A DNA stretch of 64,000 nucleotides. It comes from Argiope bruennichi (taxonomy: Eukaryota). Location of the stretch: the NCBI RefSeq assembly GCF_947563725.1, contig NC_079163.1, positions 54,630,922 through 54,694,921 of the forward strand, read 5' to 3'. Below are positions 9,381 through 58,841 of this stretch, piece after piece. The notes beneath the pieces were generated by a model, which had not been told where the DNA came from, ran no database searches, and saw only the letters and a program-made list of their open reading frames with translations. Position numbers and translations under genes: made by a program. How positions within the stretch are numbered: the first letter of the stretch is position 1; every line of letters begins with the position of its first letter.

Positions 9381-11215
9381 AAAATTATGATGGATGAAAC
9401 CCGGCATATGGTTTCATAACCATTACTGTAGATGTGCATCAACATTTGGACCGAATCCATCACAGGTGCGATTTTCTGTCAATATGCCTAACATGTGTAT
9501 ATGAAAAGGGCGAATCCAAAACACAAGCAAAAAGTATGATGGATGAAACCCGGCATATGGTTTCATAACCATTACTGTAGATGTGCATCAACTTTTGGAC
9601 CGAATCCATCACAAGTGCGATTTTCTGTCAATATGCCTAACATGTGTATATGAAAAGGGCGAATCCATCACAAGTGTGATTTTCTGTCAATATGCCTAAC
9701 ATGTGTATATGAAAAGGGCGAATCCAAAACACAAGCAAAAAGTATGATGGATGAAACCCGGCATATGGTTTCATAACCATTACTGTAGATGTGCATCAAC
9801 TTTTGGACCGAATCCATCACAAGTGTGATTTTCTGTCAATATGCCTAACATGTGTATATGAAAAGGGCGAATCCAAAACACAAGCAAAAAGTATGATGGA
9901 TGAAACCCGGCATATGGTTTCATAACCATTACTGTAGATGTGCATCAACTTTTGGACCGAATCCATCACAAGTGTGATTTTCTGTCAATATGCCTAACAT
10001 GTGTATATGAAAAGGGCGAATCCAAAACACAAGCAAAAAGTATGATGGATGAAACCCGGCATATGGTTTCATAACCATTACTGTAGATGTGCATCAACAT
10101 TTGGACCGAATCCATCACAAGTGTGATTTTCTGTCAATATGCCTAACATGTGTATATGAAAAGGGCGAATCCAAAACACAAGCAAAAAGTATGATGGATG
10201 AAACCCGGCATATGGTTTCATAACCATTACTGTAGATGTGCATCAACTTTTGGACCGAATCCATCACAAGTGTGATTTTCTGTCAATATGCCTAACATGT
10301 GTATATGAAAAGGGCGAATCCAAAACACAAGCAAAAAGTATGATGGATGAAACCCGGCATATGGTTTCATAACCATTACTGTAGATGTGCATCAACTTTT
10401 GGACCGAATCCATCACAAGTGTGATTTTCTGTCAATATGCCTAACATGTGTATATGAAAAGGGCGAATCCAAAACACAAGCAAAAAGTATGATGGATGAA
10501 ACCCGGCATATGGTTTCATAACCATTACTGTAGATGTGCATCAACTTTTGGACCGAATCCATCACAAGTGTGATTTTCTGTCAATATGCCTAACATGTGT
10601 ATATGAAAAGGGCGAATCCAAAACACAAGCAAAAAGTATGATGGATGAAACCCGGCATATGGTTTCATAACCATTACTGTAGATGTGCATCAACATTTGG
10701 ACCGAATCCATCACAAGTGTGATTTTCTGTCAATATGCCTAACATGTGTATATGAAAAGGGCGAATCCAAAACACAAGCAAAAAGTATGATGGATGAAAC
10801 CCGGCATATGGTTTCATAACCATTACTGTAGATGTGCATCAACTTTTGGACCGAATCCATCACAAGTGTGATTTTCTGTCAATATGCCTAACATGTGTAT
10901 ATGAAAAGGGCGAATCCAAAACACAAGCAAAAAGTATGATGGATGAAACCCGGCATATGGTTTCATAACCATTACTGTAGATGTGCATCAACTTTTGGAC
11001 CGAATCCATCACAAATGTGATTTTCTGTCAATATGCCTAACATGTGTATATGAAAAGGGCGAATCCAAAACACAAGCAAAAAGTATGATGGATGAAACCC
11101 GGCATATGGTTTCATAACCATTACTGTAGATGTGCATCAACATTTGGACCAAATCCATCACAGGTGCGATTTTTTGTCGATATGTCTAACATGTGTATGT
11201 GAAAAGGCGAATCCA
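9381..11215. repeat. 149-bp satellite array, about 12 units
   Basis: The period was measured from recurring landmarks: AAAGTATGAT starts at 9739, 9888 and 10037, giving 149 bp. Units alternate between CAACATTTGG and CAACTTTTGG variants. One unit, at about 9600-9720, carries an internal 58-bp duplication. The edge units are more diverged. Confidence 0.9.
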
Positions 11216-11379
11216 AAACAGAACGAGTGTATTGAGTTTAGAATGCTTTATGATTCCTTGGCGCCAAAAATATTAATTTCGGAATCATGCCTATCTCTGA
11301 ACCCAATAACACAAAAGCTCAATGAACTTGAAAGATAAACTATATACGGGCTTTTTACTTAAAAAATTTGGACTTCTTC

Positions 11380-21900: not shown

Positions 21901-22182
21901 TTCGTCCAATTGTACATTTTTTCTCTAAACCAATGTACCAAACTTGGTACTTCAGATAAAACAATAGGGACAATAGAGCACCAAGATACACATACTCATT
22001 CTCCCTTCTTATTAGTAGAGATTTATTAAGGCATTATTAATCTATTTTTTCCTATTTATATGTAGATTTGGGTTTCCAAAACAAATTTTCTTTCACAAAT
22101 GAGGTATTTAGATATCCTGAAAATTTATTTATAAATCGATAATTATCGAACCTTCCTCTACACTTCTCTTCAAAATATAAAA

Positions 22183-22326
22183 TCCTCCCTCTGGTGTGGT
22201 GTGAAAGTTTGGAGAGTGGGTGCTAGCTAAGTTGTCGTCCTCATCATCTGACCGTGGTTCAGAATTACGAGGTCCGTCCCAAAATATCCCTATTATTGCT
22301 TTAAAAATGGACATTAATATAACTGA
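22183..22326 (+). mobile_element. tRNA-derived SINE family 1, 5'-truncated copy (3' half only)
   Basis: It aligns to 32680-32810 of the full copy: CTGGTGTGGTGTGAAAGTTTGGAGAGTGGGTGCTAGCT...GGTCCGTCCCAAAATATCCCTATTATTGCTTTAAAAATGGACATTAATATAACTGAA. Confidence 0.7.
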
Positions 22327-23397
22327 ATTGACTGCATTCATAAGCTGATTTGTTGCAATTATTCCTTTTTATTCGATTTTTTGATATGATAAACCGCCTG
22401 TTTTTAGTTCAGTTATGCAGTATCTTTCGTAGCTTCTATTTCTTTTATTTATTTTTATCATATTTACAAATTCTACATCTATAAAATATATATACTAAAT
22501 TATCTTTATGACAAGTTTTCAGTATTACGTTATTATCAGTTTTTAGTAACTTGTAAGATTTTTTTTTTATTTCGCATCTGCTTTTATAAAAGTTTTATCA
22601 TTATTCCACCGTGACAATGTTTAACGGCATTAAAATGTTGCGTAAAAGGGACTCTGCAACACAAAATTATGCAAAAGTATACAAAACTAGAAAGATTTAA
22701 GACAGAGAATTTTGAAAGAAAGTCATTGTAGAGTGATGTTTTTCAAAATGGCTTCAAGGAAAGGTTTTCGCTTATACTAATATTGTCTCAAGATATGCTA
22801 TATATTTGTTAACAATATTGTGCTATTATTTATTTGTTAATTTTAATATATCATACATTATAACAACAAATTCAAAATGGAAAACTTTACACTTGACGTG
22901 CCTTAAAAATTTGTTTTGAAACCCTGCTATCATATTCTTATTGAGTTAAGATATTTTGATTTTTAATATAAAACTTATATTACTTGTAATGTACACCGGT
23001 TCTCTCGCTTTCAATGTATTAAATCTCACCTAATTTATTCATTAAATGTGCATCTCCTATCATTAACTTATACAACTTCCACATACTTTTACAAATCAAA
23101 TTTCATTATGAAACTACGGCATTTTTTAATGAATAATCTTTTTCATTGAATGAAATATTTTTGAGAAACCATGTAAGAAAATTATCTTTTGTTGAAATTC
23201 ATCCAAGATCAACCAGACGTCCTTTATTCTGGCCTTTTAAAATGGAATTAATAAATATGAAGTATGGAATATTTAAATATCATTTCAAAGATGCCTACGG
23301 TGATAAAAAGAAAACGTAGAATTTAACTGAAATTTACGAAACTTTTCAAAATATGTAAATGTATAATTTATGAGGATAGAGAAAAAAGAATTAAATT

Positions 23398-24550
23398 TTA
23401 GGTGATGCAGTATGTAGCTTAAAAGTTTTCGTAATATATTTACAATCAAATGTTTTAAATCAAAATATTAATCTTGAATAATTAAAATATACTAATTTCC
23501 GAATTTTGTTCACTTTCTCACGTTTCCAATAATTATTTTACCATCAAACTTTCAGAAAACCATATTTCTGCCACAGAAGGTAGCAGAAAATATTTCAAAA
23601 TGCTTAGTTTTTACTTCAAATTATTAAATTTTAGGTGATGTAGTATGTAGCTTAAAAGTTTTCGAAATATATTTACAATCAAATGTTTTAAATTAAAATA
23701 TTAATCCTGAATAATTAAAATATACTAATTTCCGAATTTTGGTCACTTTCTCACGTTTCCAATAATTATTTTACCATCAAACTTTCAGAAAACCATATTT
23801 CTGCCACAGAAGGTAGCAGAAAATATTTCAAAATGCTTAGTTTTTACTTCAAATTATTAAATTTTAGGTGATGTAGTATGTAGCTTAAAAGTTTTCGAAA
23901 TATATTTACAAGCAAATGTTTTAAATCAATATATTAATCTTGAATAATTAAAATATACTAATTTCCGAATTTTGGTCACTTTCTCACGTTTCCAATAATT
24001 ATTTTACCATCAAACTTTCAGAAAACCATATTTCTGCCACAGAAGGTAGCAGAAAATATTTCAAAATGTTTAGTTTTTACTTCAAATTATTAAATTTTAG
24101 GTGATGTAGTATGTAGCTTAAAAGTTTTCGTAATATATTTACAATCAAATGTTTTAAATCAAAATATTAATCTTGAATAATTAAAATATACAAATTTCCG
24201 AATTTTGGTCACGTTCTCACGTTTCCAATAATTATTTTACCATCAAACTTTCAGAAAACCATATTTCTGCCACAGAAGGTAGCAGAAAATATTTCAAAAT
24301 GTTTAGTTTTTACTTCAAATTATTAAATTTTAGGTGATGTAGTATGTAGCTTAAAAGTTTTCGTAATATATTTACAATCAAATGTTTTAAATCAAAATAT
24401 TAATCTTGAATAATTAAAATATACAAATTTCCGAATTTTGGTCACGTTCTCACGTTTCCAATAATTATTTTACCATCAAACTTTCAGAAAACCATATTTC
24501 TGCCACAGAAGGTAGCAGAAAATATTTCAAAATGTTTAGTTTTTACTTCA
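23398..24550. repeat. 233-bp tandem repeat, about 4.9 copies
   Basis: The landmark TTAGGTGATG recurs at 23398, 23631, 23864, 24097 and 24330, an exact 233-bp period. Units are more than 95% identical. Confidence 0.9.
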
Positions 24551-29615: not shown

Positions 29616-32541
29616 TTGACAGTAACATAAGCATTAATTGTTTTAATATCAGTAACGAGGGGAAAACGCTTTCAAGAATAGCAATGACAAATAAATGTTT
29701 TTGACGAAATGAGGAATAAAGATAATTGGGATGACTTCCACAGTACCAATTATTATTTTTTCAAAATATAAAAGATTAATACAACTAAAAAATGCATTAA
29801 AGTTTTACTTCTTTAACTTGCAAAAGCCCAATATGTGCTTTAATATAACATTATAAATACGAAATTGGGTTTTCATTTTAATTTTCTCGTATTAAAACAG
29901 AACTACTTCGGTTCTCATTCCAGTGATCACTGGTAGGACAGAAATACTTCAGTTACAACGACAAATGGAATAAAATCCAAAAACAAATATGGCAAATCAG
30001 CTCGGGAATATTGAAATCTCAACATTTGTGGTTTTCATAAGTGTTCTTTGAAAATTTTCGTTTAGGATTATAAAAAAAATGCGGAAAAAGAGAAAATGCA
30101 TGGATCTGCCACATCATGGTAAACAAGTTCTGAAACAGTCATATTGATATTATCCATTGAACATTTCATTATCAAGGATGAAAATTTAAGGCATGTGACT
30201 TAAGTTCAAGAGGACTTTTTTGAAAAACGTCCAAAAATAGTTATATTTTTGAATATTTGTATAAAAAAAAATTGTAAAAACGTCTATGAAACCAAAATGC
30301 ACCAATAAAGAGGCAAATGTTTATGGAAAACGAAAAAAAAATTATTCTTTTGCAAAAAAGAGGTCTGGAGCAAATATCTTCTAGTTTAGAAATTTATCAA
30401 ATGGTTTGCTTAAAATTTTGCAGATAATTTAAGAAATAGATTATCTAGTTCCTTAGCTAAAAACTAAGCATTATTGTTATCTATTCTCTAAACAGTGGAG
30501 TTTGACTGATAAATAACAAGAAATTTTCAATTTTTTTATCACATTATGAAGCATTAAAACAATTATATTTCTAAATAAATAGATTACTTATTCTCTAGTT
30601 CAGGAACTGCAGAACATATTGAGAAATTATTATACCAAATTGGAACAAAAATATACATTACATTTTAATTTGATAAAATTCCTTCAAAGATTAGAATTTG
30701 AGAAAAAAGCATCTAAAACTGTAAAAAAAAGCATTAAAAAAGTAAGGAAATGCAAATATAAAAATCAGTGTAACCTCCCAAAAAATAGACTTAAAAACAA
30801 AACTCTAACGGTTTTATAAAGAAATCTGTTCAAACATTAAGAATAGCAAATTAAAAAACAATTGATAAATTCGCAAAAAATCGACTTTTTGCCGTAGTCA
30901 CTAGCCTTAATTATGTAGAAATTATTTCTAAGCCATATTCATCTAATCCCAAGATATAGTTTTCGTATACCTTAAGAAAAGGTTGATTACCAATACCGTA
31001 GATCATTTCCGTTTTTGAAATAAGCTATAATCAGCAAAGAATATGGGAGTTAAAATAAATACTAAGATTGAAGAGATAAGAATTAGTTGTGTTGATTCAT
31101 GCAAATAATTAATTTATAATATTAAACTGATTTAGTTTCGCATTAAAATTCTTTTCATTTTGCAGACTTTACTTCTACAGACATCAGAAGTAAACGCTAA
31201 ATTTCGGCAAAAAATTGATACAAATTCGGCCTTGATTTGATACCTTAATTTTATTTCATTGTAAATATGGTTTCTTGAAATAAATTTGGAAGAAAGATAG
31301 ATATATTCCACTGTTTGATTTGTTTTTAAAAAGATTAAATTTTATTCCATCTTCAAATTAATAGTCAGAAAAATATGTTATAAAACAAATGAGTCGGTTT
31401 GCAAATTGCGAAAGAATCCCTAGTTCACATGTTTATTAATTAGAAATAACGATTTAGATTATAGCGTCATTATTCTAGAGATAAAAATATTAATTCCTCG
31501 AAATATTAAAAGCATAGATTTTTTAACAGAAACGGAAAGTTAGAAGTCATTTCCTCAAAGCAAACACGCCAGTAATGAATAATTAAAATAGTTGATAAAA
31601 TGAAAGATTGCTTCTAAGAACGGTTTTTATAAAACTTAATACATCTGCCTATATAAAATAAACACCTTTAAATTGCGTAAAATGAGATTTTCAAAATCCA
31701 CATTAAAATCAAAATTTAAAAGATGCTAAGACACATAAATGCATATTTTTCAAATTAATTGAATTTCGTTGAAAAAATGAGCTTTAATGTTAATTAATTT
31801 TTACCACTTTTCATCTTTTACAATATTGAAAATTATTCTATTAAGTTTCTAGAAATATTTCTATTCTTGAATTCTCTCTAGCTAGTAAAACGAGGTAATA
31901 AAATTTAAGAATGTTACTGAATCAAAAGTTAAAATGTAAAAGGACATCTTAGCTTGCATAACTTAAGTGCATGGAATTTTTAAAAATATCACTTTTTTAC
32001 ACTAAATAACTTTATTTGAACATACACAATGCATTTTTGCTGGCAAACAGCCCAGATTTAATAATGCCTCGAGCAGCATCTAAGATATCTCAGGCAATTT
32101 AAAAGAAATATTCTGTAGCTTTCTAATTTGCTTATCTCATAGTAAAATTCACAAGACTTTATTACATATCATGTATTGCAACGATTCTTCATTTTTTATT
32201 ACTTATGTCACAAAAATGTAAATTGCTTGTGTGAAACATTTTAAAGTTAGCATTTCATAGGCGATAACAAAAATTTTGAATAAAAAAACAACCTTCTTGT
32301 CAGGTCATTTATTTTAAGTTTAAAGTTCTTCCAATTTAAAAGATACCTAAATTAAAACGACTTATTCAGTTAGTAAGAAACATAATTTTTTTAACACAAT
32401 GAGGGGAATACTTGCTTCCTTCAATTCTTTAATATTATTTAGAATTATTGAATACAAAATTTGAGTATAATACAAAAAAAAAAATATTCTTTGAAAATCT
32501 CGTTCATCAATTTAAATAGCTATTTTCCACCTTACCACCTA

Positions 32542-32810
32542 GGGCCGCAGTGGTCTGGTGGTAAGGTTTCGGCTTCGGAACCGGAGAGTTTCAGGTACGA
32601 GACCCGATTCCACCGAAGAACCGTCCTGTAAGCGGGTCTGGTGCACGTTCGTCGGGGTCAAACGACCTCCCACCGGTGTGGTGTGGAAGTTTGGAAAGGG
32701 GTTGCAAGCTCAGGTGTCGTCCTCGTTATCTGACTGCGGTTCAAAATTACAAGGTCCGTCCCAAAATAGCCCTAGTGTTGTTTTAAAACGGGATGTTAAT
32801 ATAACTAAAC
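32542..32810 (+). mobile_element. tRNA-derived SINE family 1, full-length reference copy of about 270 bp
   Basis: The tRNA-like head GGGCCGCAGTGGTCTGGTGGTAAGG...GGTACGAGACCCGATTCC has an A box (TGGTCTGGTGG) and a B box (GGTACGAGACC). The conserved body is ...GGTGTGGTGTGGAAGTTTGG...GGTCCGTCCCAAAATAGCCCTAG... and the 3' end is GTTAATATAACTAAA. At least 8 other copies occur in the window. Confidence 0.8.
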
Positions 32811-32847
32811 ATAGGCTCCTAAAATTCCGATATCGTAGAGCAAACCT

Positions 32848-32982
32848 CCTGCCTTTGGTGTGGCGCACAAGTTTGGACAGGGAAGCGATAGCTTAAGTGT
32901 ATTCCTCTTCATCTGACCTAAGGCTCAAAATTAAAGACTCTTGTGTTGCTTCAGAATAAGGCGATAATATAATTAAATTCCT
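32848..32982 (+). mobile_element. SINE family 1, partial copy (3' half), lying 40 bp downstream of the full copy
   Basis: CCTCCTGCCTTTGGTGTGGCGCACAAGTTTGGACAGGG...CTCAAAATTAAAGACTC...ATAATATAATTAAAT aligns to the SINE 3' half. Confidence 0.65.
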
Positions 32983-35092
32983 TCTTTCCAATAAGAGGAC
33001 ATATATTAAATATCAGTCTAGATTTTTCTTTTAATTTTGATTTTCTTCTATATTTCTTTACTAATAAATATAATAGCTGTAATGAGTATTTTTGAGCTTT
33101 TAAAGCTAAAAAGGAAAAATAAATAAGCAGCATATCTCCAGCCCCTTCCGAATGGAAATACTGTAACAAGATAAAACTCTTTAGATCAAATTAACTCAAT
33201 CCAGTAGATTCAGCAACATTTATAATAATAAACAAGTTTTTTTCAGAAATACCATATTTTACTATCTATAATTTGCAATCTGAGCAGAATGCAGATAAAT
33301 ATAATTTTTAGCCCTTTGCATTCGTAAGTCGAATCAGACTTGCTGTTCTGAATGAAGAATCGCTTTCACCTTCTTGCTTAGATAAAGATTTTCACCTTCT
33401 TGCTTAGATAAAGATTATTATCAAATCCATTTAACAACAAAAACTCTAAAAATAATTTTTAGGAATTAAAGTATATAAATTAGTGTATTTTTCAGCTTCT
33501 TAAGTACTAAAATCAGTCTTTACATTTACACATACATATACGCATCTTATTTATTTTTTGAATACGAAGTGCTAGTTCTTATTTGAAACAGGTGTGGTAA
33601 CTTTTTTACCCTTTAAACCTAGGCACGCAATGACTTGAATTCATTACTGAATGCTAATATATGAAAAGGTCGTACTGAAACGAATAATTCATATCAAATG
33701 AATCATTCGTTTGATACGAAACAATTTTCAACATATATTTTCTTTAGTGAAACATTCTTGCTAAAATTGTTCCGATTTGTTAGATTCTGAATAAAAGCTT
33801 TTGCTGTTGGCAGCTGTTGCTGTTTTGATTGTATTTTAAATTGAATTTTTTTTTTATTTCATCCTATACTTTTATTTCAAATAAAATGCTAAGAAATGCA
33901 TCGTTTTTCTCGTAAGGTAAATTTCATAATCATGAAATAGACATAATAAAAAATAAATATTTTGGAATGTGTCAAAATGGTGAATGAATTTTAAATCCCC
34001 TTCAAATTTAAACAAAAAAAAAGATGATAAACACATTCAAAAAATATGTTGGACACATTCAAAAAAGATCTTGGACGCATTGAAAAAAAGATCTTAGATC
34101 CATGCATTTTTAATTCGGTGAATGTTGAATATTTCTGCAATGCTTTACGATTATTCTGAAAAAATAATCAAGATTTTTTCATACTTTATCCTGATCTCCA
34201 TCTTTGAATTGATTTATAAATTTCTTATTATTAACAAATAAACACCTCATCTTGAGCTAATATCATTTGGAAATCAATAACTATATCTGTATTCGAGTCT
34301 GTCTGCAATCTTTGGAAATAGCTAACAAAAATACAAAAGTCCATACATAATAGATCGTAGAGAACTTTTACAGTCAGCATCACGACTCACAGTTTAATAT
34401 GTAAGGGGGAGGGAATGAAGATTTTATTCCCAATATATTCTTTAGATGTATTATGGTCTTCTGACCCTGAGTAAATCATAATCGGCATTCCCATTTTTCT
34501 TTTTGACGTCTTTTTATGCCACAATGCCACTCGGACATCAGAACATCAGGGGCTGTATCCCCAGGAAAATAACAATAAATTATAAATCGCAACACATATA
34601 TCATAAATGCTTCTGCGAATATATCTAAAACTTTTTCCTCCATGGAAATCTCTTTATTTTGAATTGCGTGCATGTTTTCATATTGCATAGAACTAATCAT
34701 TTTCAAACAAGATAAACCTTTTATTTTTATTGTACGGCAGGCCCAAATCTGGCCTGATACGGCTAATTTTGTTTCAAAATTGAGACTTCCTTCATAACAG
34801 TTTGATCCAAAACATAATTGCTAAAAAAAGAAAATTGGTTTTTATTTATTATTAAATTCAACTTTTTTGATGTTAACTCATCTTAATTTTTTATTATGAT
34901 TTTGGATTATTTGGAAATAGCACTTTCCATGCTGTGTAATGCAAAAGTAGCATAATTGAGTGAGGTTAATTTCCAATTTCTTTATGAAAAGTAACAATGC
35001 ATAACGTGATTAGATGGATTCTTTAGTATCACTGGAACCATAAAACACTTGCCATATTCTTACATCATCCTCATTTTCCGAAATATAACTCC

Positions 35093-35346
35093 TGCAGGAT
35101 TCCAAGTTCGAGACCCGATTCCATTAAAGATCCGTCGCGTATGCAGCCCTATTGCACGTTAAATCTGGCGTTGAGTGCCAAATGTTCTTCCGTTGGTGTG
35201 GTGCGGAAATTTGAAGAAGTGGTGCCAGCTCAGGTATCTTCCTCTTCATTTGACCAGGGTTCGAAATTTCAAGGTCCATTCCAAAATAGCCCTTATATTG
35301 CTTCCTAACGGAATGTTAATATAACTAAACTAAACTAAACTAAACT
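35093..35346 (+). mobile_element. SINE family 1 copy, 5'-truncated by about 40 bp, with an (AAACT)4 tail
   Basis: ...TCCAAGTTCGAGACCCGATTCCATTAAAGATCCGTCGCGTATGCAG...GGTCCATTCCAAAATAGCCCTTAT...GTTAATATAACTAAACTAAACTAAACTAAACTG. Confidence 0.75.
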
Positions 35347-36584
35347 GATTAATCTGAAATGTAATTTTCCTTTCTGATTTGGATATATGTATGCAAATTT
35401 TACTTTATTTTTTGAAAAGTTAATTTAGTTAAGGGACGGTGGACTGTAATAGGCATTTTTGAGAATTATTCACTTAGAGTTATGAAATTTTTATGTATAT
35501 GTATTATAATATAAATACGTCAAATTTCTTTTTAAAAAAACTTTTAAAAACGAAATATTTTTTAAAAGTTAAGATATATCATTTTTTTTAAATTTCAAAA
35601 TATTTCAGGCGACTCAATTTTTTATTTAATTTAATTTTTTTTTTACCTTTTTATCCAATATAATTTTATTTGTAATAAAACTGTGTGTGATTTAGTAATT
35701 CCAATTAAGTTCTAATGTTTTAGAAATATTTTAATATACACTCACTGAATTTTTATAAGAATTTCATGTTTTTCGGAACTAAAATTAACTTTTCACTATC
35801 TAAAAAAACACTAGAAATATAAAAAGCATACCCTATGTTCTTTAATGTTTAATTGAAATCTTTATTATCAATTAATTCTATTTAATTTCTTCAAAAACTA
35901 AGACATCTGGAACATTTCCAAGATATTTAAATCTAACTACAATATCATTTTCGGAAAGTAATTAAAATGTGCGTTTATTTTTCTACGCCTTTGAAATGTC
36001 TGCTTTATTGAATACTAGCCGCCTTTGGCGACCAGCCGGTTCGCCAATCTTAATGTTCGTTAAAATTTTAATAATTAAATATTTTATGCAATTTCTACTT
36101 TAATAGCTTCTTCATCAAAATATTTTAAAACTTCAAATTTTGATTATCATATAATTCATTCATAATATTATAAAGGCCTTCAGTCATAACGTAATATGTA
36201 TCTCTCTCATTTTCTGTTAGCACCCGTAGAATTTATGCTTTAAATTAAAGTGGAAAGAATTTATCTTCAATTAATATAATAATATTTTTTACTGAAACAA
36301 AGCATTTTTTTATAATCTGATTACTGAAAATAGAGTCACTCAGCGTTTAAACTTTATGGGCACTAAAGAATATTTTTTTAAATTTATGTAATATCTCAAG
36401 AGTTGGTCAACAAAATTTTCTTAGATTCATTATGAGCAGATCGATTCATTAACAATGTTTAAATTTAAATGCATCAAACACTAAGAAAATAAAACGAATC
36501 GTTTAAAATAAACGGTTGAAAACAGGTTTTAAAAAAACTACTTAAAAAACGTTGTACTTAAAACTATAAGCATATACATGTTGC

Positions 36585-36660
36585 CATGGCAACAATCAGA
36601 ACAGAATGCGCATGCGTGAATTTTCTTCGCCGGTTACGTAACGCAAATACGTGATTTTTT
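36585..36660. promoter_or_regulatory. cluster of perfect palindromic motifs: GTTGCCATGGCAAC (canonical RFX X-box), GCGCATGCG (NRF1-like), GTTACGTAAC (PAR-bZIP-like)
   Basis: The motifs were read directly: 14-bp, 8-bp and 10-bp perfect palindromes lie within about 70 bp, in a locally GC-richer island. The cluster is bracketed by direct repeats of about 90 bp at 36425-36510 and 36745-36835. Confidence 0.3.
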
Positions 36661-36959
36661 CTACGTCAGTTGGGGTAACGCTATGCGGATTAGAAATTTT
36701 TAATTTCCTTTATTCTGTTTTATTTTAATTCAAAAGTACTTCAGAATGAATCTGAAAGATTGATTCATTAACAATGTTTAATTTTAAATGCATCAAACAT
36801 TAATAAAATAAGCAGAACCGATTGAAATAATCCGCCGAAAAATTTTAACCCTAGCCTCATTACTGTTGGGAGAAAAAAACAACGGAAGCCTTTCTCGTTT
36901 GGCGCTGGGGATAATGGAAGATTTTTTTGGCGGAAAAGTTGGCGGTGGGGAAAATGGAA

Positions 36960-37114
36960 GATTCTTTTGGCGGGAAAGTTAGTTTTTAATTAATAATTAA
37001 AATTCTAATTAAAATTTCAAAAAAAGGGACCCCAGGTGCACATTCCCGACCTCTAAGGTATACATGTACCAAATTTGATAGCTGTATGTCAAATGACCTG
37101 GCCTGTAGAGCGCC

Positions 37115-37116
<2 letters not shown>
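36960..37116 (-). repeat. interspersed repeat family C, copy 1 (partner at 41090-41270), adjoining a (CA)n microsatellite
   Basis: The reverse complement of 37040-37110 (CTACAGGCCAGGTCATTTGACATACAGCTATCAAATTTGGTACATGTATACCTTAGAGGTCGGG) aligns to 41125-41185 (CTGTACACACCAGGCCGTCTGCCTATCAAATTTGGCAAATATGTACTTTGGAGGGTCGGAAAG). Confidence 0.45.

Positions 37117-37148
<32 letters not shown>
37117..37148. repeat. (CA)16 microsatellite
   Basis: Read directly. Confidence 0.95.
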
Positions 37149-37152
<4 letters not shown>

Positions 37153-39035
37153 GCTTTATTATAAGTATATAGATACATCTTATAACACAACTTAATTGAA
37201 TATAAAATATATATTTTGATGAGAAAACGATAAAAATAAAATTTCATGTTTCTGTCCCTTTTTTCTTATTTCAAAGTTCAATGTCCTCAAGTACCATTCA
37301 CAAGCATGAAATAAGCCGAGTTAAATAAGAGTGTCTAAAAACAAACTGAAGAAAAAGCTCTAGTTCTGAGTTCTTTATTTTACTCACGTACTGTTATTTC
37401 CGCAAAGAAATGTGTTTTAAATTAAGGAATATAGTCTTATAAAAGTTATTGTATCTTCAACTTGTTTTGAATTATTTTTTTCAAAATGATTTAAAGACTT
37501 TTTGAGAAATAAGATATAGTCAGGCTCTGACGAGTTGTTGGGGGCGTCACAAGAATTGAGTGTTACTAGAAGAGTCTAATTTGATAAGATAGGAAGCGGA
37601 CATGAGTTAATATTTATAAAATCTGACCTTGTTTCTTTTCTTCATAATACACTATTGAAGATATATTAATAATGAGAAACAGAGGAGTAAAATGTTCAGA
37701 GTTCAAGGCAGTTGTATTTATTGCACTCGTATTTTTTCTCCGTTTCGTAGTTTTCTTCCTTTTCGAATGTGCACTCATTTGTCTGAGGTAATAAGATTAG
37801 GCGCTAACTCATCACAGACAAACTATAATTCTTTCAAAACTTTTATAAAGCATTTTCTGTATTTTATGTTGCATGAATTAAATTTGGAAATGAAAACTTC
37901 TCCTGACAGATATTCAAAAACTCGATTTAGCACAAGATTCTATCACCCTCATACACAAATTTACATTTTGTTAAAAGCATACTTTAGATTCAAATTGCTT
38001 CTTGATTTAAATAACTTAAAACAATTCTTACATTCTCTTTATTCTTTGTTTCAAAAAATGAAAGTTAATTCACAAATTATGATTGCAGCAAGTCGTTTTA
38101 TTTCAATTTGTTCTCTTAATAAATTACAGTATTTATTCACGATTTCAAAGAATCAATTCCTTACGAATCCAAATGAATGAGCAAGTAATTGAAAGGTTAA
38201 ACATTCAATAATGAAAATGATTGTTACTTTCTTATTCAGAAGATAAAACAATGTTACTTTACATGAAAAAGTATCATCTAAAATTAACAGCCTTTCAGAA
38301 GAGGAAAAACTCCCATTTAATTTATTAACTAACGTTTCTTACTCTTAATTATGTATAAGAAACAACAACTCTAAGTTGTATACTACTGGCTATTTTTTCT
38401 CTAAAGGAATTTCCAAATGATCCATTCTTAGAATTTACAGTGTTTTGATTTTAACAAAACTTGTTTAAAGAACTTTGGGGAAAAAAATTCTTCTTTCTAG
38501 ATTTCGAATAGATAGTGTAGAAATTATTCTATTCTTAAACTCCTGAACGTTTTGGGAATAGAATTACAGGTAAAAGCGTAAGAAGAAATCGAATATCATA
38601 ATTATTTTAATAGAAGTTTCAGTAACAAAGGGTAATTCGATTATTCGAAGCATGCCTTTCCGAGGACAGATAAGGACAAGAACATGAAAAGGTACTTTAT
38701 TACCTCTGTTAATGGGATTAAATTGAAGTAAGAAAAAGTTCGAGGTGGGGAATACATGGCCAAGATATCTTCTTAAAAGTGCAACAAAATATTTCAAAAA
38801 TCACTTTTAATCTAGGTTAATAATTTTTTGGGGTTTTTATACAATTTGATATTACTTTTTATTTTGGTCTACTAACCATCTTATCACATCCACTCAAGGG
38901 AATAAAAAATTCTTTTTATTTCTTTAACTCACATTGTACTTTAATAAAAAGAATTAAAAATAATATGTAATAATAAATAGTGTTTCAGTAATAAGCATGG
39001 AATAGTTGTTTAATTCTTTCATATTAGACTATTAG

Positions 39036-41089: not shown

Positions 41090-41270
41090 CAAGGAAAAAA
41101 CATTTGTCTCTATGTGTATATGCTGGCTCTGTACACACCAGGCCGTCTGCCTATCAAATTTGGCAAATATGTACTTTGGAGGGTCGGAAAGTGATTTTTT
41201 GAAATTAAGAGAAATTTCAAAAATTAAGAGAAATATTGACTTTTTCCGTGATAACTTTCAAAAAATTTAC
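41090..41270 (+). repeat. interspersed repeat family C, copy 2
   Basis: See 36960-37116. It shares the CTATCAAATTTGG...GGTCGG...TTTTTGAAATT segment. Confidence 0.45.
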
Positions 41271-44974: not shown

Positions 44975-45284
44975 TGTATAACACTGTACTCAGTTCAATC
45001 CCGTTTCAAAGTAGCACTAGGGCTATTTTGGAACCAATTTATGATGAGAACGACGCCTGAGCTGGCACCCTCTCTTTTAACATCCGCACCACCCACAACC
45101 ACCGACAGATGGTGCCTATCTGTGGTTGTGGCACCACACCAGTGGGATGACATTTGGCCCCGACGGATTTAATATGCACAATGCCCGCTTACACGACTGT
45201 ACTTCGATGGATTCGGGGTTCGAACCTGAAACTCTAAGTGTTCCGAAACCGAGACCTTATAACCAGGCCACCGAAACCCTCGCC
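44975..45284 (-). mobile_element. SINE family 1, full-length copy on the minus strand
   Basis: The reverse complement gives GGCGAGGGTTTCGGTGGCCTGGTTATAAGGTCTCGGTTTCGGAACACTTAGAGTTTCAGGTTCGAACCCCGAATCCATCGAAG...GGTGCCAGCTCAGGCGTCGTTCTCATCATAAATTGGTTCCAAAATAGCCCTAGTGCTACT. Confidence 0.75.
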
Positions 45285-49721: not shown

Positions 49722-49871
<150 letters not shown>

Positions 49872-50519: not shown

Positions 50520-50720
50520 GAAAATGTCCGTCCGTCCTTCTTTCTGTGACAAATATAACTCAAAAACGCTTTGATCTAGAGGGTTGAAATTTGGTATACG
50601 GTCTTTGCACAAAATATGCAGAATCAATTTTTGAAAAACTGTGTTTGCCCGGCAATTCGAATATAAATTAACACGATAATTACAAAAATGAAGGCATGGT
50701 ATATGTAGTAAAAACGTGAA
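50520..50720 (+). repeat. interspersed repeat family D, copy 2
   Basis: See 44085-44480. Confidence 0.5.
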
Positions 50721-51012
50721 ATTAACACCAAAAGTTAATATTTCGTATCTATTGTACGTCAATGCCATGTGAAGCATTCTCTGTTAAAAATGTTAAATTC
50801 ACGCCAAAAGTTAATATTTCGTAACTATTGTACGTCAATGCCATTTGAAGCATTCACTGTTAAAAATCTTAAATTCACGCCAAAAGTTAATATTTCGTAA
50901 CTATTCTACGTTAATGCCATGTGAAGCATTCACTGTTAAAAATCTTAAATTCAAGCCAAAAGTTAATATTTCGTAACTATTCTACGTCAATGCCATGTGA
51001 AGCATTCTCTGT
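50719..51012. repeat. 76-bp minisatellite, about 3.9 copies (unit AAATTCACGCCAAAAGTTAATATTTCGTAACTATTGTACGTCAATGCCATGTGAAGCATTCACTGTTAAAAATCTT)
   Basis: The period was measured as 76 bp: unit starts at 50719 and 50795. Confidence 0.85.
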
Positions 51013-51099: not shown

Positions 51100-52410
51100 C
51101 ATTAGTATCCAAAAGTGATTTTATCAACAACATGACTTATTAGAGAAATATTATGGCCTTTGTATAAATAATAGAGTAGGAAATAATATTTGCTACAAAT
51201 CCAATATTCCTAACAAATTGAGTTTTCATGCTACTTCACAAATTCAGTGCTCGATTCCAAACAACTCAATTCAATACAGTTATCTGCAAACACAGACGAT
51301 AATGTGTTTTCATACATTATCGTAAACACCATCAATAATGTGTTTAAAGGTCACATATATATTAATTATTCGCTTGAATTTACATGTTTCTTTGTCAACG
51401 GGTTAATCCAATGGCACAAACACTTTCAGATGGAAGCCGTCGTTGGATAACCCATTTCGCTTTCAACACAACCTTTCTAATTCCATTTGCTTACAAATTA
51501 ATCTATTCAAGTCTTCCAGGAAACGATTTCGTGTCTCTTTTCAAAGCAGCCCATATAAATTATTCCGAATTAATTCCACAAATTAAATCGCAAATCATCG
51601 CGACGAATTCGATATCTAAAATGTGGTTTTTCGAAAATCTCGGCAACACTTATAAACAATAATCCTTATCAAATGAGTTAATACCTTAATCATGGTATGA
51701 ATTCTTTTAGGGACCTTTTCACTTTTGCCACAACATATTCGCGGCGATGACAATGCAAGGATTTCGGATATTTTTATCTGAAAACGAATCTGCTTTGCAT
51801 TCGCTTTTCAGAGTCATTAATTTCTCAGATCCCCGTGAAAGAATTTAAGATATTTCTAACGCGTTGATTATTAAGAAAGCTCGTTTTAGAAACAAACATC
51901 ATTTATTTTCGCTAAAAAGATTTTCATTGTTGTCCGATTTTGTTTCGAATCGACTTTTGAAATGTAAACGAGGTGGTGTTAAAGTTCGTCTGGAACTTAA
52001 AATGCTTGTAATTTGTGGTAAGTGTAGCATATGAAATAGTAAGAAATAGTCCGTGAAATGGTTTTAAAAGCTTGATATATCTCTTTGTATTTACATATTT
52101 TAATTTTATAAATTTTATTTGAAAATCACTTACTGAAAAATAACTTATCAAGATCTCCATTAATTCATGACTTCACCAGAACAGGAAATAGTGTTATTTG
52201 ATCGTTTGAGTAAAAATATACCTCTATTGTTGAAAGAAACTTGAAAGACAGATTAGATACGAAATATTATATAAAAATTCTACATATAAGTCGATCCAAA
52301 AACAATTTTTCTTTGCTATGAAGCCCTTTCTTTTCTATAAAAAGTTAGACGCACAAAGCTTTTAAAACTACCATACAGATTTTTTTTCTAGTACATATAA
52401 AATTATAGCA

Positions 52411-52685
52411 GGACCGTGGTGGCCTGATGGTAAGGTATCGGCTTCAGAACCGGAACGTTTCAGGTTCCAGACCCGATTCCACCAAAGAACCGTCGTGTAA
52501 GCGGGTCTGGGGCAGGTTAAATCTGTCGAAGCCAAACGTCCTCCCGCTGGCGTGGCGTGAAAGCTTGAGCTGGCACCTCAGGTGTCATCCTCGTCCGCTG
52601 ACCGCAGTTCAAAATTACAAGATCCGTCCTAAAAAAAAACTTAATGTTGCTTTAAAAAGAGACGTTAATATAACTATACTAAAAA
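52411..52685 (+). mobile_element. SINE family 1, full-length copy
   Basis: GGACCGTGGTGGCCTGATGGTAAGGTATCGGCTTCAGAACCGGAACGTTTCAGGTTCCAGACCCGATTCCACCAAAG...GGTGTCATCCTCGTCCGCTGACCGCAGTTCAAAATTACAAGATCCGTCCT...GTTAATATAACTATACTAAAA. The A and B boxes are intact. Confidence 0.8.
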
Positions 52686-53891
52686 TATAATTTCTGCAAA
52701 AGTTAGACACACAGAGCTTTTAAATCCATTATATAATTTTTTCTAGCACTTATTATAAAATTATAACAACTCGATACTGCTAAAAATTATCTACACACGA
52801 AATATAATGTCACATCTAAATGATTCTTATTAAAAAAAATACCGAAAGAGTATGTGGTATGTATTGTTTGCTTATATGCACACTCAATATAAGGATACTG
52901 TCACATCTAAATAATTATTTAAAACCGAAAGAGTACTTTTATGTATCCTCCCATATTATATTTTGTTTGTTTGTTGTAATCACATATAACCTATATTTTT
53001 GAACCTTCATCAAAAGTAAACGAATAGGAAGATTTTAAATACTGATATAATTACTTTATAGATAATTAAAAGTAATGAAAAATAAACCCCAATAAAAAAA
53101 AATGTCCTGCTTTTAAAGAATGCACATATAGCAAAGTAAAATTTGACAAAACTTTGCCAGGTTTTAAGGAGTTTTAGAAAACTTTCTTTTAAATTTTGGT
53201 GGAAGCAACCATAACCCCAAAACGTTATAGCTGCAAGTTTCGGTTTTCGATCACATGATGGAGAATGATTTTATTTGTTTAAAGATTGGAAAGCTCAACC
53301 ATTCCGAAAGGGTCGTCTGTATTTATCATTTAGAAAACTCTGGAGAAAAGAATAGCTTATTTGTACTTTATTTATCTTGTAGAATACGAATTGCAATTAT
53401 CCAAAGTACTTTTTTTTTATGCCAAATGCCGTAATAAATTGAATTTTTCAGAATTTCTGTGGATTTTCGGGTTTGTAACAAACAGTACATAAAATAAACT
53501 TTTTAAATGACGTTTTATCAGTGTTTAAAAAAAGAGAGGATTATCAGATATCTAGAGATAAAAAAATCATAAAAGCGTGCGGCGCAAATAGAAAAGCATT
53601 AATTTGGAATTATAGTAGTATTTATAGCATTTTAATTTTCATATAACGAATACTTGGAATTTTTTTTTTTCTTCTCCAGTTGTTTGCTATGTTTTCTGCT
53701 TTTACGATTTTTGTTTCCACTTCCAAATTTGTCTAAAAAAAATTACTTTTCTTTTCCAATACACTGATATAAGAATTTTCTTTACGTTTATTGATATATT
53801 TTCAATTTTATTTTTTATCTTTATTTGTTGTAATATTCATTGTGATTTAAGAAAGACAAGCGCAGACACAATAGCATTGCAGTTGCAGTAC

Positions 53892-56312: not shown

Positions 56313-58683
56313 TTAAAATCTGAGATTGAGTAAGCGATAGCCATATTTACATGCTTGCTGAAAATTACTCTCATGATGATGAAAATAAATATTTCACAAT
56401 TTCATTTCAAATTCTGAATACAATAATGTTGCTATTTTTTCATAATTTTCTGCCAACGATACGTACCAAATGCATCAAAGCTGCAATATATGCAGTTTTC
56501 CGTACTTTTCTCAATGCAAGATTGCTGTACTTGGTGGTGCATTTACTCACATAACCCACATATTAAACAAAATTGTCTTTGAAAGTGAACATAATGATGA
56601 TATGAAGCAGACAGAAAATATTTATAAGCATATACAAAAGTAAAGATATTTATTTCAATTAAACTGTGCTACTATTATTTATTTTTCTTTTTATTGTTTT
56701 AATTACTAGAGCAATGAAAAAGATATTACAAGTGCAAATACATTCATTTATATGATGCTTATAAATCTATATTAAATGCTGTGTTATGTGGTAAAAATTT
56801 ATTTAATGGCGCATTTAAGGAATAAATATGTATTAAGAGCTTTTATGTGTTGAAACAGGAAAGAAAAACTATTTAATTGCGGATGTTTATGATTGTAATT
56901 AATTTGCTTTATTATAAGAGTAAAAATGTTTTTTATCTATTACTGACCTAGATAAGCTATAAATTTTTATAAACGTTAAATAGTTATGTAAACATTTTAT
57001 GTTTAACTAAGAGTATTCATAAAATATTTTTAGATTAGTATAATCAAAAACATTTCAAGTTAAAGTGGACGAATTTTTAAAAGTAAGCAATTATTTAGTA
57101 ATTGCGTCTTCATATACTGACAACAATCCACTTTATTTTGCTGTCTCCTTTCAAAAAACCTTAAAATTTCATGCAGAAAAAAATAGCAACGAATTTTGCA
57201 AAGAATCTTAAGAAACTTAAAAGAAAATACGAAGAAGAAGAAAGAAGAGTTTATAATGTCATCAGCGATAGAAAATATGTTTTAAATAAGAAATTTTAAA
57301 CAAAATCAACGCCATAATTAAAACAAAAACATTTCATGTATTTTGCACTGAATACTATTAAAAAATGTCGGAAGCCAATTTTTTAAAACAGGTTTTTCCT
57401 TTTATGCTGAAAACAAATATTTATTTTAATTATCAGCATTTTAAGTTTTAATTTATCATAAATATCGCAAAATTTTGATGATTTTCAAATTACCCACCAT
57501 GGGGCGCCACTCGAAAAGAATAAAAATTTCATTAAATAAATTAACTTATCAAAATCTATAAATATCAAAATACTACACAGTCATCAACAACGTTTAAGTG
57601 TGCAGAATTTCGAAATTCTACCACATAAAGAAGCGAGTGAAAATCGATTACAGACTTCCATCCTAACAAACATGGAAATTAAATAAATGTATATCAAATT
57701 CATAATTCCCTTGTCGTAGCAAAGCAATTTAAAGCATCCTGTAATGAGTATTGTTAAAACAAATTGACGTTGTAATTAAATTATTTCATAATAGATAAAA
57801 CCTTATCTGAATAAACTAAAGCCATTATGGCTTGAGCACAATAAAGCGTCAATGAGATTAACATCAGTTCTCATTTAAACACTTGAAAGATTTGTAAGAC
57901 TGTTTTTATTGCCATAATTACCCGTTCAAAGCGACTCAACAACTAAGAAGGGGCCAAAAAAGTTAAAAAACACATTCTGAATGCCGGGAAATGCGATTAT
58001 CGCGTGACCCATCTCACCAAGTGAAACATCAAAAACTCTTTCAAACGAAGAAACGCTATTCAGCAAGCGTTGACGCTTCCGAAGACTGAATAAAAAGAAT
58101 TTGTTTTGTTACTTGAAAGATAAACAGCAAATCGAATAACAGAATAAACAAAACTATCAATGATGTCGAGGAATAAAGAGTACCAGTTTTTTATAGTTTA
58201 TAATAATTTCACAAATAAAAAGATCATTCATACATTGTGTTCTACTTTTTTTCCTTTTTAATCCTTTTAATTATACTCAAAACTAAAGTTTGAAGCATAT
58301 TTTATCAAATCTATTTATTTTCCAGTTTTAAATGAAAGAAATTTAATCGTTGTTTCTTTTTCTTTTTTCCTTTTTATTATTTTTTTAATTCTGGAAACGT
58401 TATCAAATGATAATTTTTTTATTATTGAGACGGAAAGGAATTCATAGTTAATTCTCTTTTAATTCAGCGAAAAGACTGTTTTCGCTAAGTGTATTTGAAA
58501 TTGCAATTAATTAAATAAATAGTTAATTAGGCACGAAATTAAAAAAAATGTTAATAATACACACGGGGGGTTTTTAAACTTATAATTAATTATTGGGACT
58601 AAATTTAAACTTATTTTTGAAATGACCAATGACAAGTCACTTTCGGTGACAAGGTGTTCTCCCTTTATACCCTAGTATTTATT

Positions 58684-58841
58684 CATCATCATCATCATCA
58701 TTTCATTAATCATCATTATCATCATTTCATTAATCATCATTATCATCATTTCATTAATCATCATTATCATCATTTCATTAATCATCATTATCATCATTTC
58801 ATTAATCATCATTATCATCATTTCATTAATCATCATTATCA
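58684..58841. repeat. 24-bp minisatellite x about 6.5 (unit CATTTCATTAATCATCATTATCAT), preceded by (CAT)6
   Basis: Read directly. The ORFs at 58654-58926 on both strands are artefacts. Confidence 0.9.

What the first reader, a model, noticed from the sequence alone, without database searches (positions are those of the whole stretch)
36425..36835. Island of three perfect palindromic transcription-factor-like sites (RFX X-box, NRF1-like, PAR-bZIP-like) framed by 90-bp direct repeats
Within about 70 bp the following lie: GTTGCCATGGCAAC (the textbook symmetric X-box bound by RFX factors, which regulate ciliary genes), (T)GCGCATGCG (core of the NRF1 palindrome) and GTTACGTAAC (a TTACGTAA PAR-bZIP/E4BP4-type site). 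The stretch is GC-richer than its surroundings. It is bracketed by two diverged direct repeats of about 90 bp (36425-36510 and 36745-36835) that share ...GATTCATTAACAATGTTTAA(A/T)TTTAAATGCATCAAACA.... Three long perfect palindromes so close together are unlikely by chance in AT-rich DNA. The island could be a promoter or enhancer module, possibly carried by a repeat.
Basis: partly seen in the sequence, partly recalled or inferred. Interest (0 to 1): 0.5.

Follow-up and report, generated by a model that had tools for sequence, protein, structure and literature searches.

The report
Promoter-like motif cluster in spider DNA
A 120-base GC- and CpG-rich spot in otherwise AT-rich, repeat-filled spider DNA carries textbook binding sites for RFX, NRF1-type and bZIP transcription factors, with E2F-type sites next to it; it is most likely an ordinary promoter or enhancer, but its target gene could not be found.

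Summary
At 36579-36668 lie a 16-bp perfect palindrome holding the consensus X-box GTTGCCATGGCAAC, an NRF1-type site TGCGCATGCGTG (11/12; only 8 bp are a perfect palindrome), the PAR-bZIP palindrome GTTACGTAAC, then TACGTGA and a CRE half-site. 85-nt direct repeats (84% identical, 319 bp apart) flank them. The cluster exceeds dinucleotide shuffles. These are the only X-box, GCGCATGCG and TTACGTAA in 64 kb. The core is 45% GC with 10 CpG, against 23-28% GC in the flanks.

New here:
- a tandem 40-mer with E2F-type sites, including TTTGGCGGGAAA, at 36898-36980
- a decayed 35-bp internal duplication inside the island
- a spider origin for the window, from a SINE shared with Araneus ventricosus

I found no coding exon within about 11 kb, no RNA family, no transposon ends, and no second copy in the window or in 91 kb of A. 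ventricosus.

The best reading is a compact cis-regulatory module, either a TATA-less promoter or an enhancer, with confidence about 0.5. A repeat-borne regulatory fragment or a functionless cluster remain possible. Copy number in the source genome, conservation and transcription could not be tested. The finding is ordinary in kind and of low interest.

The parts
36438..36522 (+). Direct repeat A: AT-rich, 23.5% GC. A gapped alignment extends it to about 36420-36525.
36579..36594 (.). 16-bp perfect palindrome TGTTGCCATGGCAACA, containing the consensus RFX X-box GTTGCCATGGCAAC at 36580-36593.
   Evidence: It is the only match to GTNRCCNNRGYAAC in 64 kb. Consensus taken from PMC3414849 and PMC4168999.
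36607..36618 (.). NRF1/EWG-type site TGCGCATGCGTG, 11 of 12 to YGCGCAYGCGCR. It contains two overlapping 8-bp perfect palindromes, ATGCGCAT and CGCATGCG.
   Evidence: the only GCGCATGCG in the window. The equivalent variant aCGCATGCGC binds human NRF1 with Kd 1.27 versus 0.31 uM (PMC10810270).
36633..36642 (.). 10-bp perfect palindrome GTTACGTAAC, a PAR-bZIP/E4BP4-type site (RTTAYGTAAY).
   Evidence: the only TTACGTAA in the window, and one of two RTTAYGTAAY matches.
36648..36654 (+). TACGTGA, an ACGT-core motif. It is the counterpart in unit 2 of GCGTGA in unit 1.
36661..36671 (.). CTACGTCAGTT: a CRE half-site (TGACGTAG on the minus strand, 36661-36668) overlapping an Inr-like TCAGTT (36666-36671, plus strand).
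   Evidence: TGACGT occurs 17 times and TCAGTY 71 times in the window, so each is weak on its own.
36612..36681 (+). Decayed internal tandem duplication of about 35 bp. Unit 1 is 36612-36644 and unit 2 is 36647-36681, with 26 of 35 positions identical. The perfect palindromes of unit 1 are not kept in unit 2.
   Evidence: 1 of 500 shuffles reaches the score. Also.
36757..36841 (+). Direct repeat A', 84% identical to A and 319 bp downstream of it.
36898..36980 (+). E2F-type block: TTTGGCGC (36898-36905) followed by a tandem 40-mer of 2.0 copies, 90% identical, with TTTGGCGG twice and TTTGGCGGGAAA at 36966-36977.
   Evidence: 4 of the window's 14 TTTSSCGS matches and its only TTTGGCGGGAAA. The block lies outside the neighbouring repeat element.
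36989..37175 (+). Context only, not part of the module. A short dispersed repeat with an internal (AC)16 abuts the E2F-type block. A second copy lies at about 41105-41230 on the minus strand, and a relative is present in A. ventricosus (L011).

Best explanation
This is a compact cis-regulatory module in a spider genome. It is most likely the core of a TATA-less promoter, or otherwise a promoter-proximal or distal enhancer.

Proposed mechanism (inferred, not shown):
- An RFX dimer binds the symmetric X-box.
- An NRF1/EWG-type homodimer binds TGCGCATGCGTG 14 bp away.
- bZIP dimers (PAR/Pdp1/Vri-type and CREB/ATF-type) bind GTTACGTAAC, TACGTGA and TGACGTAG.
- E2F/DP binds the tandem TTTGGCGC/TTTGGCGGGAAA sites 230-390 bp downstream.
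- Together they would hold a nucleosome-free, CpG-rich patch open in AT-rich DNA and recruit RNA polymerase II.

The transcript would then be one of three things: a non-coding first exon of a gene with a very long first intron, a non-coding RNA, or, if the module is an enhancer, a gene outside the window.

The 85-nt flanking repeats and the 35-bp and 40-bp internal duplications are by-products of local duplication. That process built and multiplied the sites and is not needed for function.

Shown: the sites, their exactness, their co-location and their non-random density. Inferred: binding, activity and target.
For: - The only strict X-box, the only GCGCATGCG, the only TTACGTAA and the only TTTGGCGGGAAA in 64 kb all lie within 400 bp.
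- The palindrome cluster exceeds 99.5-100% of dinucleotide shuffles.
- The exact X-box is expected about 0.85 times in 2 Gb under an independent-base model.
- The core is 45% GC with 10 CpG, against 23-28% GC in the flanks. It is the only stretch with at least 10 CpG per 116 bp that is not a SINE or a minisatellite.
- The X-box 14-mer is the published palindromic consensus for an arthropod Rfx.
- The NRF1-type variant retains measurable NRF1 binding, and EWG is the arthropod homologue.
- Pairing of NRF1 with CRE elements in a cell-cycle promoter is documented for human PLK4 (title of PMC3874167).
- The same X-box followed by GCGCATGCG turned up independently in intron-containing animal contigs from metagenomes: L002-L007, of which L003 carries split Ig-domain exons. 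Hits in bacteria were at chance level.
- The flanking repeats have diverged by 16.5%, yet all 34 palindromic positions are intact. The neutral probability of that is about 0.04 if the island is as old as the duplication.
- No RNA family or unusual fold competes as an explanation.
Against: - No gene was found. There is no Pfam hit in any stop-free segment of at least 45 aa from 24.5 to 48 kb. A composite query of the ORF pieces of at least 55 aa with GC of at least 0.33 found no homologue; that query had low power for short or diverged exons.
- The 162-aa ORF 1 kb downstream has no relative among 1.84 billion representatives and has non-coding-like codon composition.
- There is no TATA box or DPE, and the Inr-like hexamer is common in the window.
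- Unit 2 of the internal duplication does not keep the palindromes of unit 1, so the palindromes are not uniformly preserved.
- The neighbourhood is dense in repeats, where regulatory-looking fragments of mobile elements are common.
- No expression, chromatin or orthologue data could be consulted.
- The site was chosen after inspection, so the p-values are optimistic.
Confidence: 0.5

Rival explanations
1. This is a fragment of a mobile element, for example the regulatory region of a non-autonomous element, an LTR or a LINE 5' end. It would carry its own promoter or enhancer sites and be present in further copies elsewhere in the genome. The transcription-factor sites would then serve, or once served, the element rather than a host gene.
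For: - Direct repeats flank the island.
- Internal 35-bp and 40-bp tandem duplications of site-bearing units are typical of element regulatory regions.
- The window is repeat-rich, with SINEs, satellites and a dispersed (AC)n-bearing element directly abutting at 36989.
- No host gene is nearby.
Against: - There is no second copy of any part of 36300-36990 in the 64 kb or in 91 kb of A. ventricosus, although that sample shares SINE copies (from more than one repeat) and the (AC)n element with the window.
- No translated piece matches any predicted protein.
- There are no terminal inverted repeats and no TG...CA ends, and the TTAACCCTAG at 36845 has no partner.
- No transposase, reverse transcriptase or gag remnant was detected within about 11 kb.
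- 85-bp flanking repeats are far too long for a target-site duplication.
- These searches cover only a tiny fraction of any spider genome.
Confidence: 0.22
2. This is a functionless cluster. Local duplication and drift in a small GC-richer patch happened to produce sequences that look like consensus sites, and a reader scanning for textbook motifs picked them out.
For: - The selection was post hoc.
- The total count of G/C-containing palindromes in the window is not elevated (49 against 58 expected).
- A palindrome of at least 16 bp occurs in 5.5% of shuffles.
- Several of the listed motifs (TGACGT, TCAGTY, RCGTGA) are common in the window.
- No gene or transcript was found.
- A large genome offers many places for rare coincidences.
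Against: - The exact 14-mer consensus X-box is expected less than once per 2 Gb.
- The chance of GCGCATGCG and of GTTACGTAAC within 70 bp of it is about 1e-4 each, even with the island's own composition.
- Four palindromes within 70 bp occur in 0.5% of shuffles, and 42 palindromic bases in none.
- Further promoter-type sites (E2F type) and CpG density co-locate.
Confidence: 0.2
3. This is a structural or RNA element rather than a protein-binding module: cruciform or hairpin DNA such as a replication origin, a recombination hotspot or a Helitron-type 3' hairpin, or an unannotated small RNA gene.
For: - Palindromes can extrude as hairpins.
- Single-stranded DNA folding of 36560-36700 is somewhat more stable than shuffles (z = -2.2; 7 of 200 shuffles fold at least as well).
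- A dispersed repeat that reminded me, from memory and untested, of Helitron-derived DINE-1-type elements lies 400 bp away.
Against: - There is no Rfam match at the gathering threshold, and no match inside the island itself (36575-36690) even at E up to 5.
- The RNA fold of the whole 421-nt module is not unusual (z = -1.0).
- The stems are short (8 bp or less per arm).
- No CTRR terminus follows the hairpin.
- The palindromes coincide exactly with dimeric transcription-factor consensus sites, which this reading leaves unexplained.
Confidence: 0.05

Closest known systems
X-box promoter modules of RFX target (ciliary) genes in Drosophila and C. elegans
   Same: It has an exact match to the palindromic consensus GTTGCCATGGCAAC used to find Drosophila Rfx targets. 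It is a single X-box in a short regulatory patch beside sites for other factors.
   Different: Known X-boxes lie within about 200 bp of the start of an identifiable ciliary gene. Here no gene is present within about 11 kb. The documented partner in flies is a Forkhead site, whereas here the partners are NRF1-, bZIP- and E2F-type sites.
TATA-less NRF1/CRE/E2F promoters of housekeeping and cell-cycle genes (for example human PLK4, activated through CRE and NRF1 elements, PMC3874167)
   Same: It combines an NRF1-type palindrome, ACGT-core bZIP/CRE sites and E2F-type sites in a CpG-rich patch without a TATA box.
   Different: The NRF1 site is one base off consensus, a variant that binds human NRF1 about 4-fold more weakly. 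The organism is a spider with 29% GC. There is no mapped transcription start and no downstream gene.
Regulatory regions carried by mobile elements (LTR U3 regions, LINE 5' UTRs, non-autonomous elements with tandem enhancer repeats)
   Same: It has flanking direct repeats, internal tandem duplications of site-bearing units, and sits among repeats.
   Different: No further copies, no terminal repeats, no target-site duplication and no element proteins were found.
PAR-bZIP / E4BP4 (Pdp1/Vri) sites of circadian promoters
   Same: GTTACGTAAC is a perfect RTTAYGTAAY palindrome (consensus from my own knowledge).
   Different: It is a single site with no known clock gene nearby. Other bZIP dimers such as C/EBP and ATF also bind TTACGTAA.

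Membership tests
RFX X-box regulatory site | Match to the X-box consensus (GTNRCCNNRGYAAC; palindromic GTTGCCATGGCAAC) | tested here: met
   Exact 14 of 14 at 36580-36593; the only match in 64 kb. Consensus.
RFX X-box regulatory site | Position within about 200 bp upstream of the start of a (ciliary) target gene | tested here: not met
   No coding exon or Pfam domain was detected from 24.5 to 48 kb. The composite ORF query found no homologue. The downstream 162-aa ORF has no relatives. A non-coding first exon cannot be excluded.
RFX X-box regulatory site | RFX occupancy, or dependence of expression on RFX | not testable with these tools
   Needs ChIP, EMSA or a reporter assay in the source species.
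NRF1/EWG binding site | Intact GCGCNTGCGC with both GCGC half-sites | tested here: not met
   The site is GCGCATGCGT (the aCGCATGCGC variant on the other strand). The strict 12-mer gives 0 hits. That variant bound human NRF1 about 4-fold more weakly.
PAR-bZIP / E4BP4 site | RTTAYGTAAY palindrome | tested here: met
   GTTACGTAAC at 36633-36642.
RNA polymerase II promoter | A transcription start site with a transcript leaving it | not testable with these tools
   No CAGE or RNA-seq data are available. Window ORFs looked up by exact sequence are not on record.
RNA polymerase II promoter | Core promoter elements (TATA, Inr, DPE) | tested here: inconclusive
   An Inr-like TCAGTT lies at 36666, but TCAGTY occurs 71 times in the window. 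There is no TATAAA in 36400-37000. I saw no DPE at +28 when checking by eye.
Conserved cis-regulatory module | Sites conserved at the orthologous locus of related species | not testable with these tools
   No spider genome can be searched by DNA here. The 91 kb of A. ventricosus fetched is not orthologous.
Dispersed repeat / mobile element | Multiple copies in the genome | tested here: inconclusive
   No other copy in 64 kb, in 91 kb of A. ventricosus or in the protein proxy search. The source genome itself was not searchable.
Dispersed repeat / mobile element | Terminal inverted repeats or LTR ends, with a short target-site duplication | tested here: not met
   Only weak AT-rich inverted repeats are present. 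The TTAACCCTAG has no partner. The flanking repeats are 85 nt long, too long for a target-site duplication.
Structured RNA gene | Match to a known RNA family, or an unusually stable conserved fold | tested here: not met
   Rfam gave no hit at the gathering threshold. The relaxed scan of 36000-37400 gave six weak sub-threshold matches, none overlapping the island (36575-36690). RNA fold z = -1.0.

The most novel reading that the evidence does not exclude
The X-box followed 14 nt later by GCGCATGCGTG is a fixed-geometry RFX-NRF1 composite element shared across distant animals. The same 14-mer, the same 14-nt gap and the same 11-mer occur in an intron-containing animal contig from a metagenome (L003 and its near-identical copies L005-L007), with no other sequence similarity. 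This would point to cooperative binding of the two dimers.
Probability: 0.04. Interest if true: 0.5.

Novelty: new member of a known kind. Interest (0 to 1): 0.2.

Why it matters
If it is active, this would be one more example of a compact invertebrate promoter or enhancer built from deeply conserved dimeric-factor sites (RFX, NRF1/EWG, bZIP, E2F). It would be a convenient short fragment for reporter work in spiders, where almost no regulatory DNA has been characterised. It would also illustrate how local duplication multiplies binding sites. It does not open a new question: clusters of known sites are the expected look of regulatory DNA.

Tried and rejected
1. piggyBac-like end: TTAACCCTAG at 36845 has no inverted partner, and the word is at chance frequency.
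2. Whole 319-bp tandem duplication (A-B-A'-B'): the sequence after A' is not related to B (p about 0.19).
3. E2F-type block as part of the neighbouring (AC)n repeat: alignment with the second window copy and with an A. ventricosus copy starts only at about 36989, after the block.
4. RNA gene or structured element: there is no Rfam hit and the folds are unremarkable.
5. Coding exon across the island: the longest stop-free frame is 37 aa.
6. The 162-aa ORF at 37692-38180 as the driven gene. It is the longest ORF in the window (p about 0.015 in Markov simulations). However, G at codon position 1 is 9%, and there is no Pfam hit, no relative among 1.84 billion representatives and no record of it.
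7. Finding copies through predicted proteins: a 731-aa composite of all stop-free pieces of 36380-37010 gave nothing.
8. Finding exons with a 3026-aa composite of GC-richer ORF pieces: nothing, though the query has low power for short or diverged pieces.
9. Viral origin: there is no X-box/NRF1 pair in viral contigs. One NRF1/bZIP pattern hit lies in a phage coding region and is a chance match. There was no hit for repeat A.
10. Retrieving the source contig through exact ORF look-ups: not on record.
11. Bacterial matches to the X-box/NRF1 pattern (L001, L008, L009): GC-rich sequence, at about chance frequency.

Full report
**What the window is.** The window is 29.4% GC with a CpG observed/expected ratio of 0.88. 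It has no tRNA and no Rfam family at gathering score, and only one ORF of at least 120 aa. It is full of repeats:
- a 149-bp satellite
- a 233-bp tandem array
- minisatellites
- a (GT)74 run

A SINE-derived ORF at 32543-32893 matches only 'hypothetical proteins' of the spider Araneus ventricosus, at 47-62% identity. Four A. ventricosus loci (91 kb, 29-35% GC) share SINE copies with the window at 70-85% DNA identity. The window is therefore spider DNA, and eukaryotic regulatory logic applies.

**Checking the observation.**
- TGTTGCCATGGCAACA at 36579-36594 is a 16-bp perfect palindrome around the 14-bp X-box.
- GCGCATGCG lies at 36608-36616.
- GTTACGTAAC lies at 36633-36642.

One correction is needed. 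The NRF1-type element is a perfect palindrome over only 8 bp and matches the 12-mer consensus at 11 of 12 positions.

The flanking direct repeats are 85 nt long, 84% identical and 319 bp apart. They are AT-rich and have no third copy in the window. The sequence after the second repeat is unrelated to the island, so the arrangement is A-island-A' and not two full tandem units.

The core 36575-36690 is 44.8% GC with 10 CpG, between flanks of 23% and 28% GC.

**Is it more than chance?** I used 200 dinucleotide-preserving shuffles of the whole window:

| Feature | Share of shuffles reaching it |
|---|---|
| Palindrome of at least 16 bp with at least 8 G/C | 5.5% |
| Four G/C-containing palindromes within 70 bp | 0.5% |
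| 42 palindromic bases within 70 bp | 0% |

Under an independent-base model, the exact X-box is expected 2.7e-5 times per window, or about 0.85 times per 2 Gb. The other two words are each expected within 70 bp of it with probability about 1e-4, even using the island's own composition.

A census of consensus patterns shows that the window's only strict X-box, only GCGCATGCG, only TTACGTAA and only TTTGGCGGGAAA all fall within 36580-36978.

There are two reservations.

**What else is there.**
- Just 3' of the three palindromes lie TACGTGA (36648), a CRE half-site (TGACGTAG on the minus strand, 36661-36668) and an Inr-like TCAGTT (36666).
- The 3' part of the island is a decayed tandem duplication of about 35 bp (36612-36644 against 36647-36681; 26 of 35 identical; 1 of 500 shuffles reaches the score). 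In unit 2 the NRF1-type and PAR-bZIP palindromes of unit 1 are replaced by GCAAATACG and GTTGGGGTAAC. The palindromes are therefore not uniformly kept, while the RCGTGA-T-run-CG core is.
- Between 230 and 390 bp downstream, TTTGGCGC and a tandem 40-mer (2.0 copies, 90% identical) carry four E2F-type matches, including a perfect TTTGGCGGGAAA.
- This block ends where a short dispersed repeat with (AC)16 begins, at about 36989. That repeat has a second copy at about 41.1-41.2 kb and a relative in A. ventricosus. The E2F-type block is outside it.
- Among stretches with at least 10 CpG per 116 bp, the island is the only one that is not a SINE or a minisatellite.

**What it is not.**
- There is no RNA family, even at relaxed thresholds, and the folds are not remarkable.
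- No open frame longer than 37 aa crosses the island.
- There are no convincing inverted repeats, and the piggyBac-like TTAACCCTAG has no partner.
- No Pfam domain appears in any stop-free segment of at least 45 aa from 24.5 to 48 kb.
- A composite query of the window's GC-richer ORF pieces found no homologue.
- The 162-aa ORF 1 kb downstream is statistically a little long (p about 0.015). It has 9% G at first codon positions and no relative among 1.84 billion representative proteins. I treat it as a chance ORF.

**Copies elsewhere.** No part of 36300-36990 recurs in the window or in 91 kb of A. ventricosus. No translated piece of it matches any predicted protein. These are weak tests, because the source genome could not be searched.

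A pattern scan for X-box, 5-30 nt, GCGCATGCG gave three kinds of result:
- nothing in viral contigs
- two bacterial genomes and one GC-rich metagenome contig, which is about the chance expectation
- six contigs of lower GC that look like animal host DNA

Among the six, L003 and L005-L007 are one locus, L002 is a related one, and L004 is independent. L003 carries split Ig I-set exons. Apart from the motifs, these contigs share no similarity with the window.

L003 has the same 14-nt gap and the same 11-mer GCGCATGCGTG as the window. The related worm locus L002, however, has its NRF1-type site 27 nt away, at a different aligned position, which argues against a fixed spacing. I take these hits only as a sign that X-box and NRF1-type sites tend to keep company in animal DNA.

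**Literature.**
- GTTGCCATGGCAAC is the palindromic consensus used for Drosophila Rfx targets and is also cited for a mouse Rfx target (PMC3414849, PMC4168999).
- Human NRF1 binds GCGCATGCGC as a homodimer. The single-base variant aCGCATGCGC, which is the window's site read on the other strand, binds about 4-fold more weakly (1.27 against 0.31 uM). Drosophila EWG is the homologue (PMC10810270).
- CRE plus NRF1 elements drive a human cell-cycle promoter (PMC3874167, title).
- The PAR-bZIP consensus RTTAYGTAAY and the E2F consensus TTTSGCGC are from my own knowledge.

**Interpretation.** Exact or near-exact consensus sites for several dimeric factors, packed into a CpG-rich patch in AT-rich DNA and joined by E2F-type sites, are best explained as a cis-regulatory module. 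This would be a TATA-less promoter or an enhancer.

A modest further argument comes from the flanking repeats. They have diverged by 16.5% (Jukes-Cantor 0.093 per lineage). If the island is as old as they are, 34 palindromic positions would stay intact by neutrality with probability about 0.04.

Against this reading stand the lack of any gene, transcript or conservation evidence, the imperfect second duplication unit and the repeat-rich setting. My confidences are:

| Reading | Confidence |
|---|---|
| Host regulatory module | about 0.5 |
| Repeat-borne regulatory fragment | about 0.22 |
| Functionless coincidence | about 0.2 |
| Structural or RNA element | about 0.05 |

The first two are not exclusive, since a repeat-derived fragment can be co-opted.

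**Verdict.** In kind this is an ordinary putative regulatory element, a new member of a known kind, and of low interest unless follow-up shows a conserved RFX-NRF1 composite or a mobile promoter cassette.

Noticed in passing
window 32539-32977, 35027-35345, 52405-52701 (also 22179-22327 and 45041-45273): Copies of a SINE-like repeat whose translation (...RPDSTEEPSCKRVW...GSKLQGPSQNSP..KRDVNI) matches only Araneus ventricosus 'hypothetical proteins'. DNA identity to A. ventricosus copies is 70-85%. The 35027 copy ends in a (TAAAC)n tail. This identifies the window as spider DNA.
   Followed up: partly
window 36989-37175 (+), about 41105-41230 (-); L011 about 8937-9110: A short dispersed repeat with an internal CA/AC microsatellite and a '...ccaaatttgatag...' core. 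It reminded me, from memory only, of Helitron-derived DINE-1-type elements of insects. It abuts the E2F-type block.
   Followed up: partly
window 9380-11220: A satellite array with a 149-bp unit, more than 10 copies, 98% identical.
   Followed up: no
window 23390-24550: A tandem array with a 233-bp unit, 5 copies, 98% identical.
   Followed up: no
window 4625-4935; 50719-51012; 58677-58841; 49722-49870: A CpG-rich 27-bp minisatellite (8 copies), a 76-bp tandem repeat (3.9 copies), a 24-bp repeat (6.9 copies) and a (GT)74 run.
   Followed up: no
window 37659-38177 (+): The longest stop-free stretch in the window, 173 codons (162 aa from the ATG), lies 1 kb downstream of the island. A stretch this long is reached in 1.5% of Markov simulations. 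G at codon position 1 is 9%, and there is no Pfam hit and no relative among 1.84 billion proteins. It is probably a chance ORF.
   Followed up: yes
window 36025-36047: A small GC-rich inverted repeat, TTGGCG-N11-CGCCAA, lies in an otherwise AT-rich stretch 550 bp upstream of the island. It looks NFI-like, but the spacing is not the canonical 5 nt.
   Followed up: no
window 3964-4281 (-): A stop-free 106-aa segment (...GHGRVPVYFQKFGRIQENKCICGG...HYLKEC...) looks by eye like the C-terminal tail of a non-LTR retrotransposon ORF2. It was included in the composite query, which found nothing, so this is not confirmed.
   Followed up: partly
L003 1288-1324 (also L005, L006, L007); L002 909-958; L004 7321-7353: Animal-looking metagenome contigs carry the same X-box followed by GCGCATGCG. 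L003, which has split Ig I-set exons, shows the same 14-nt gap and the same 11-mer GCGCATGCGTG as the window. In L003 the pair lies about 75 bp beyond an exon that looks by eye like a transmembrane segment followed by a basic RRRRK stretch (no Pfam hit). In L002 the NRF1-type site sits at a different position.
   Followed up: partly
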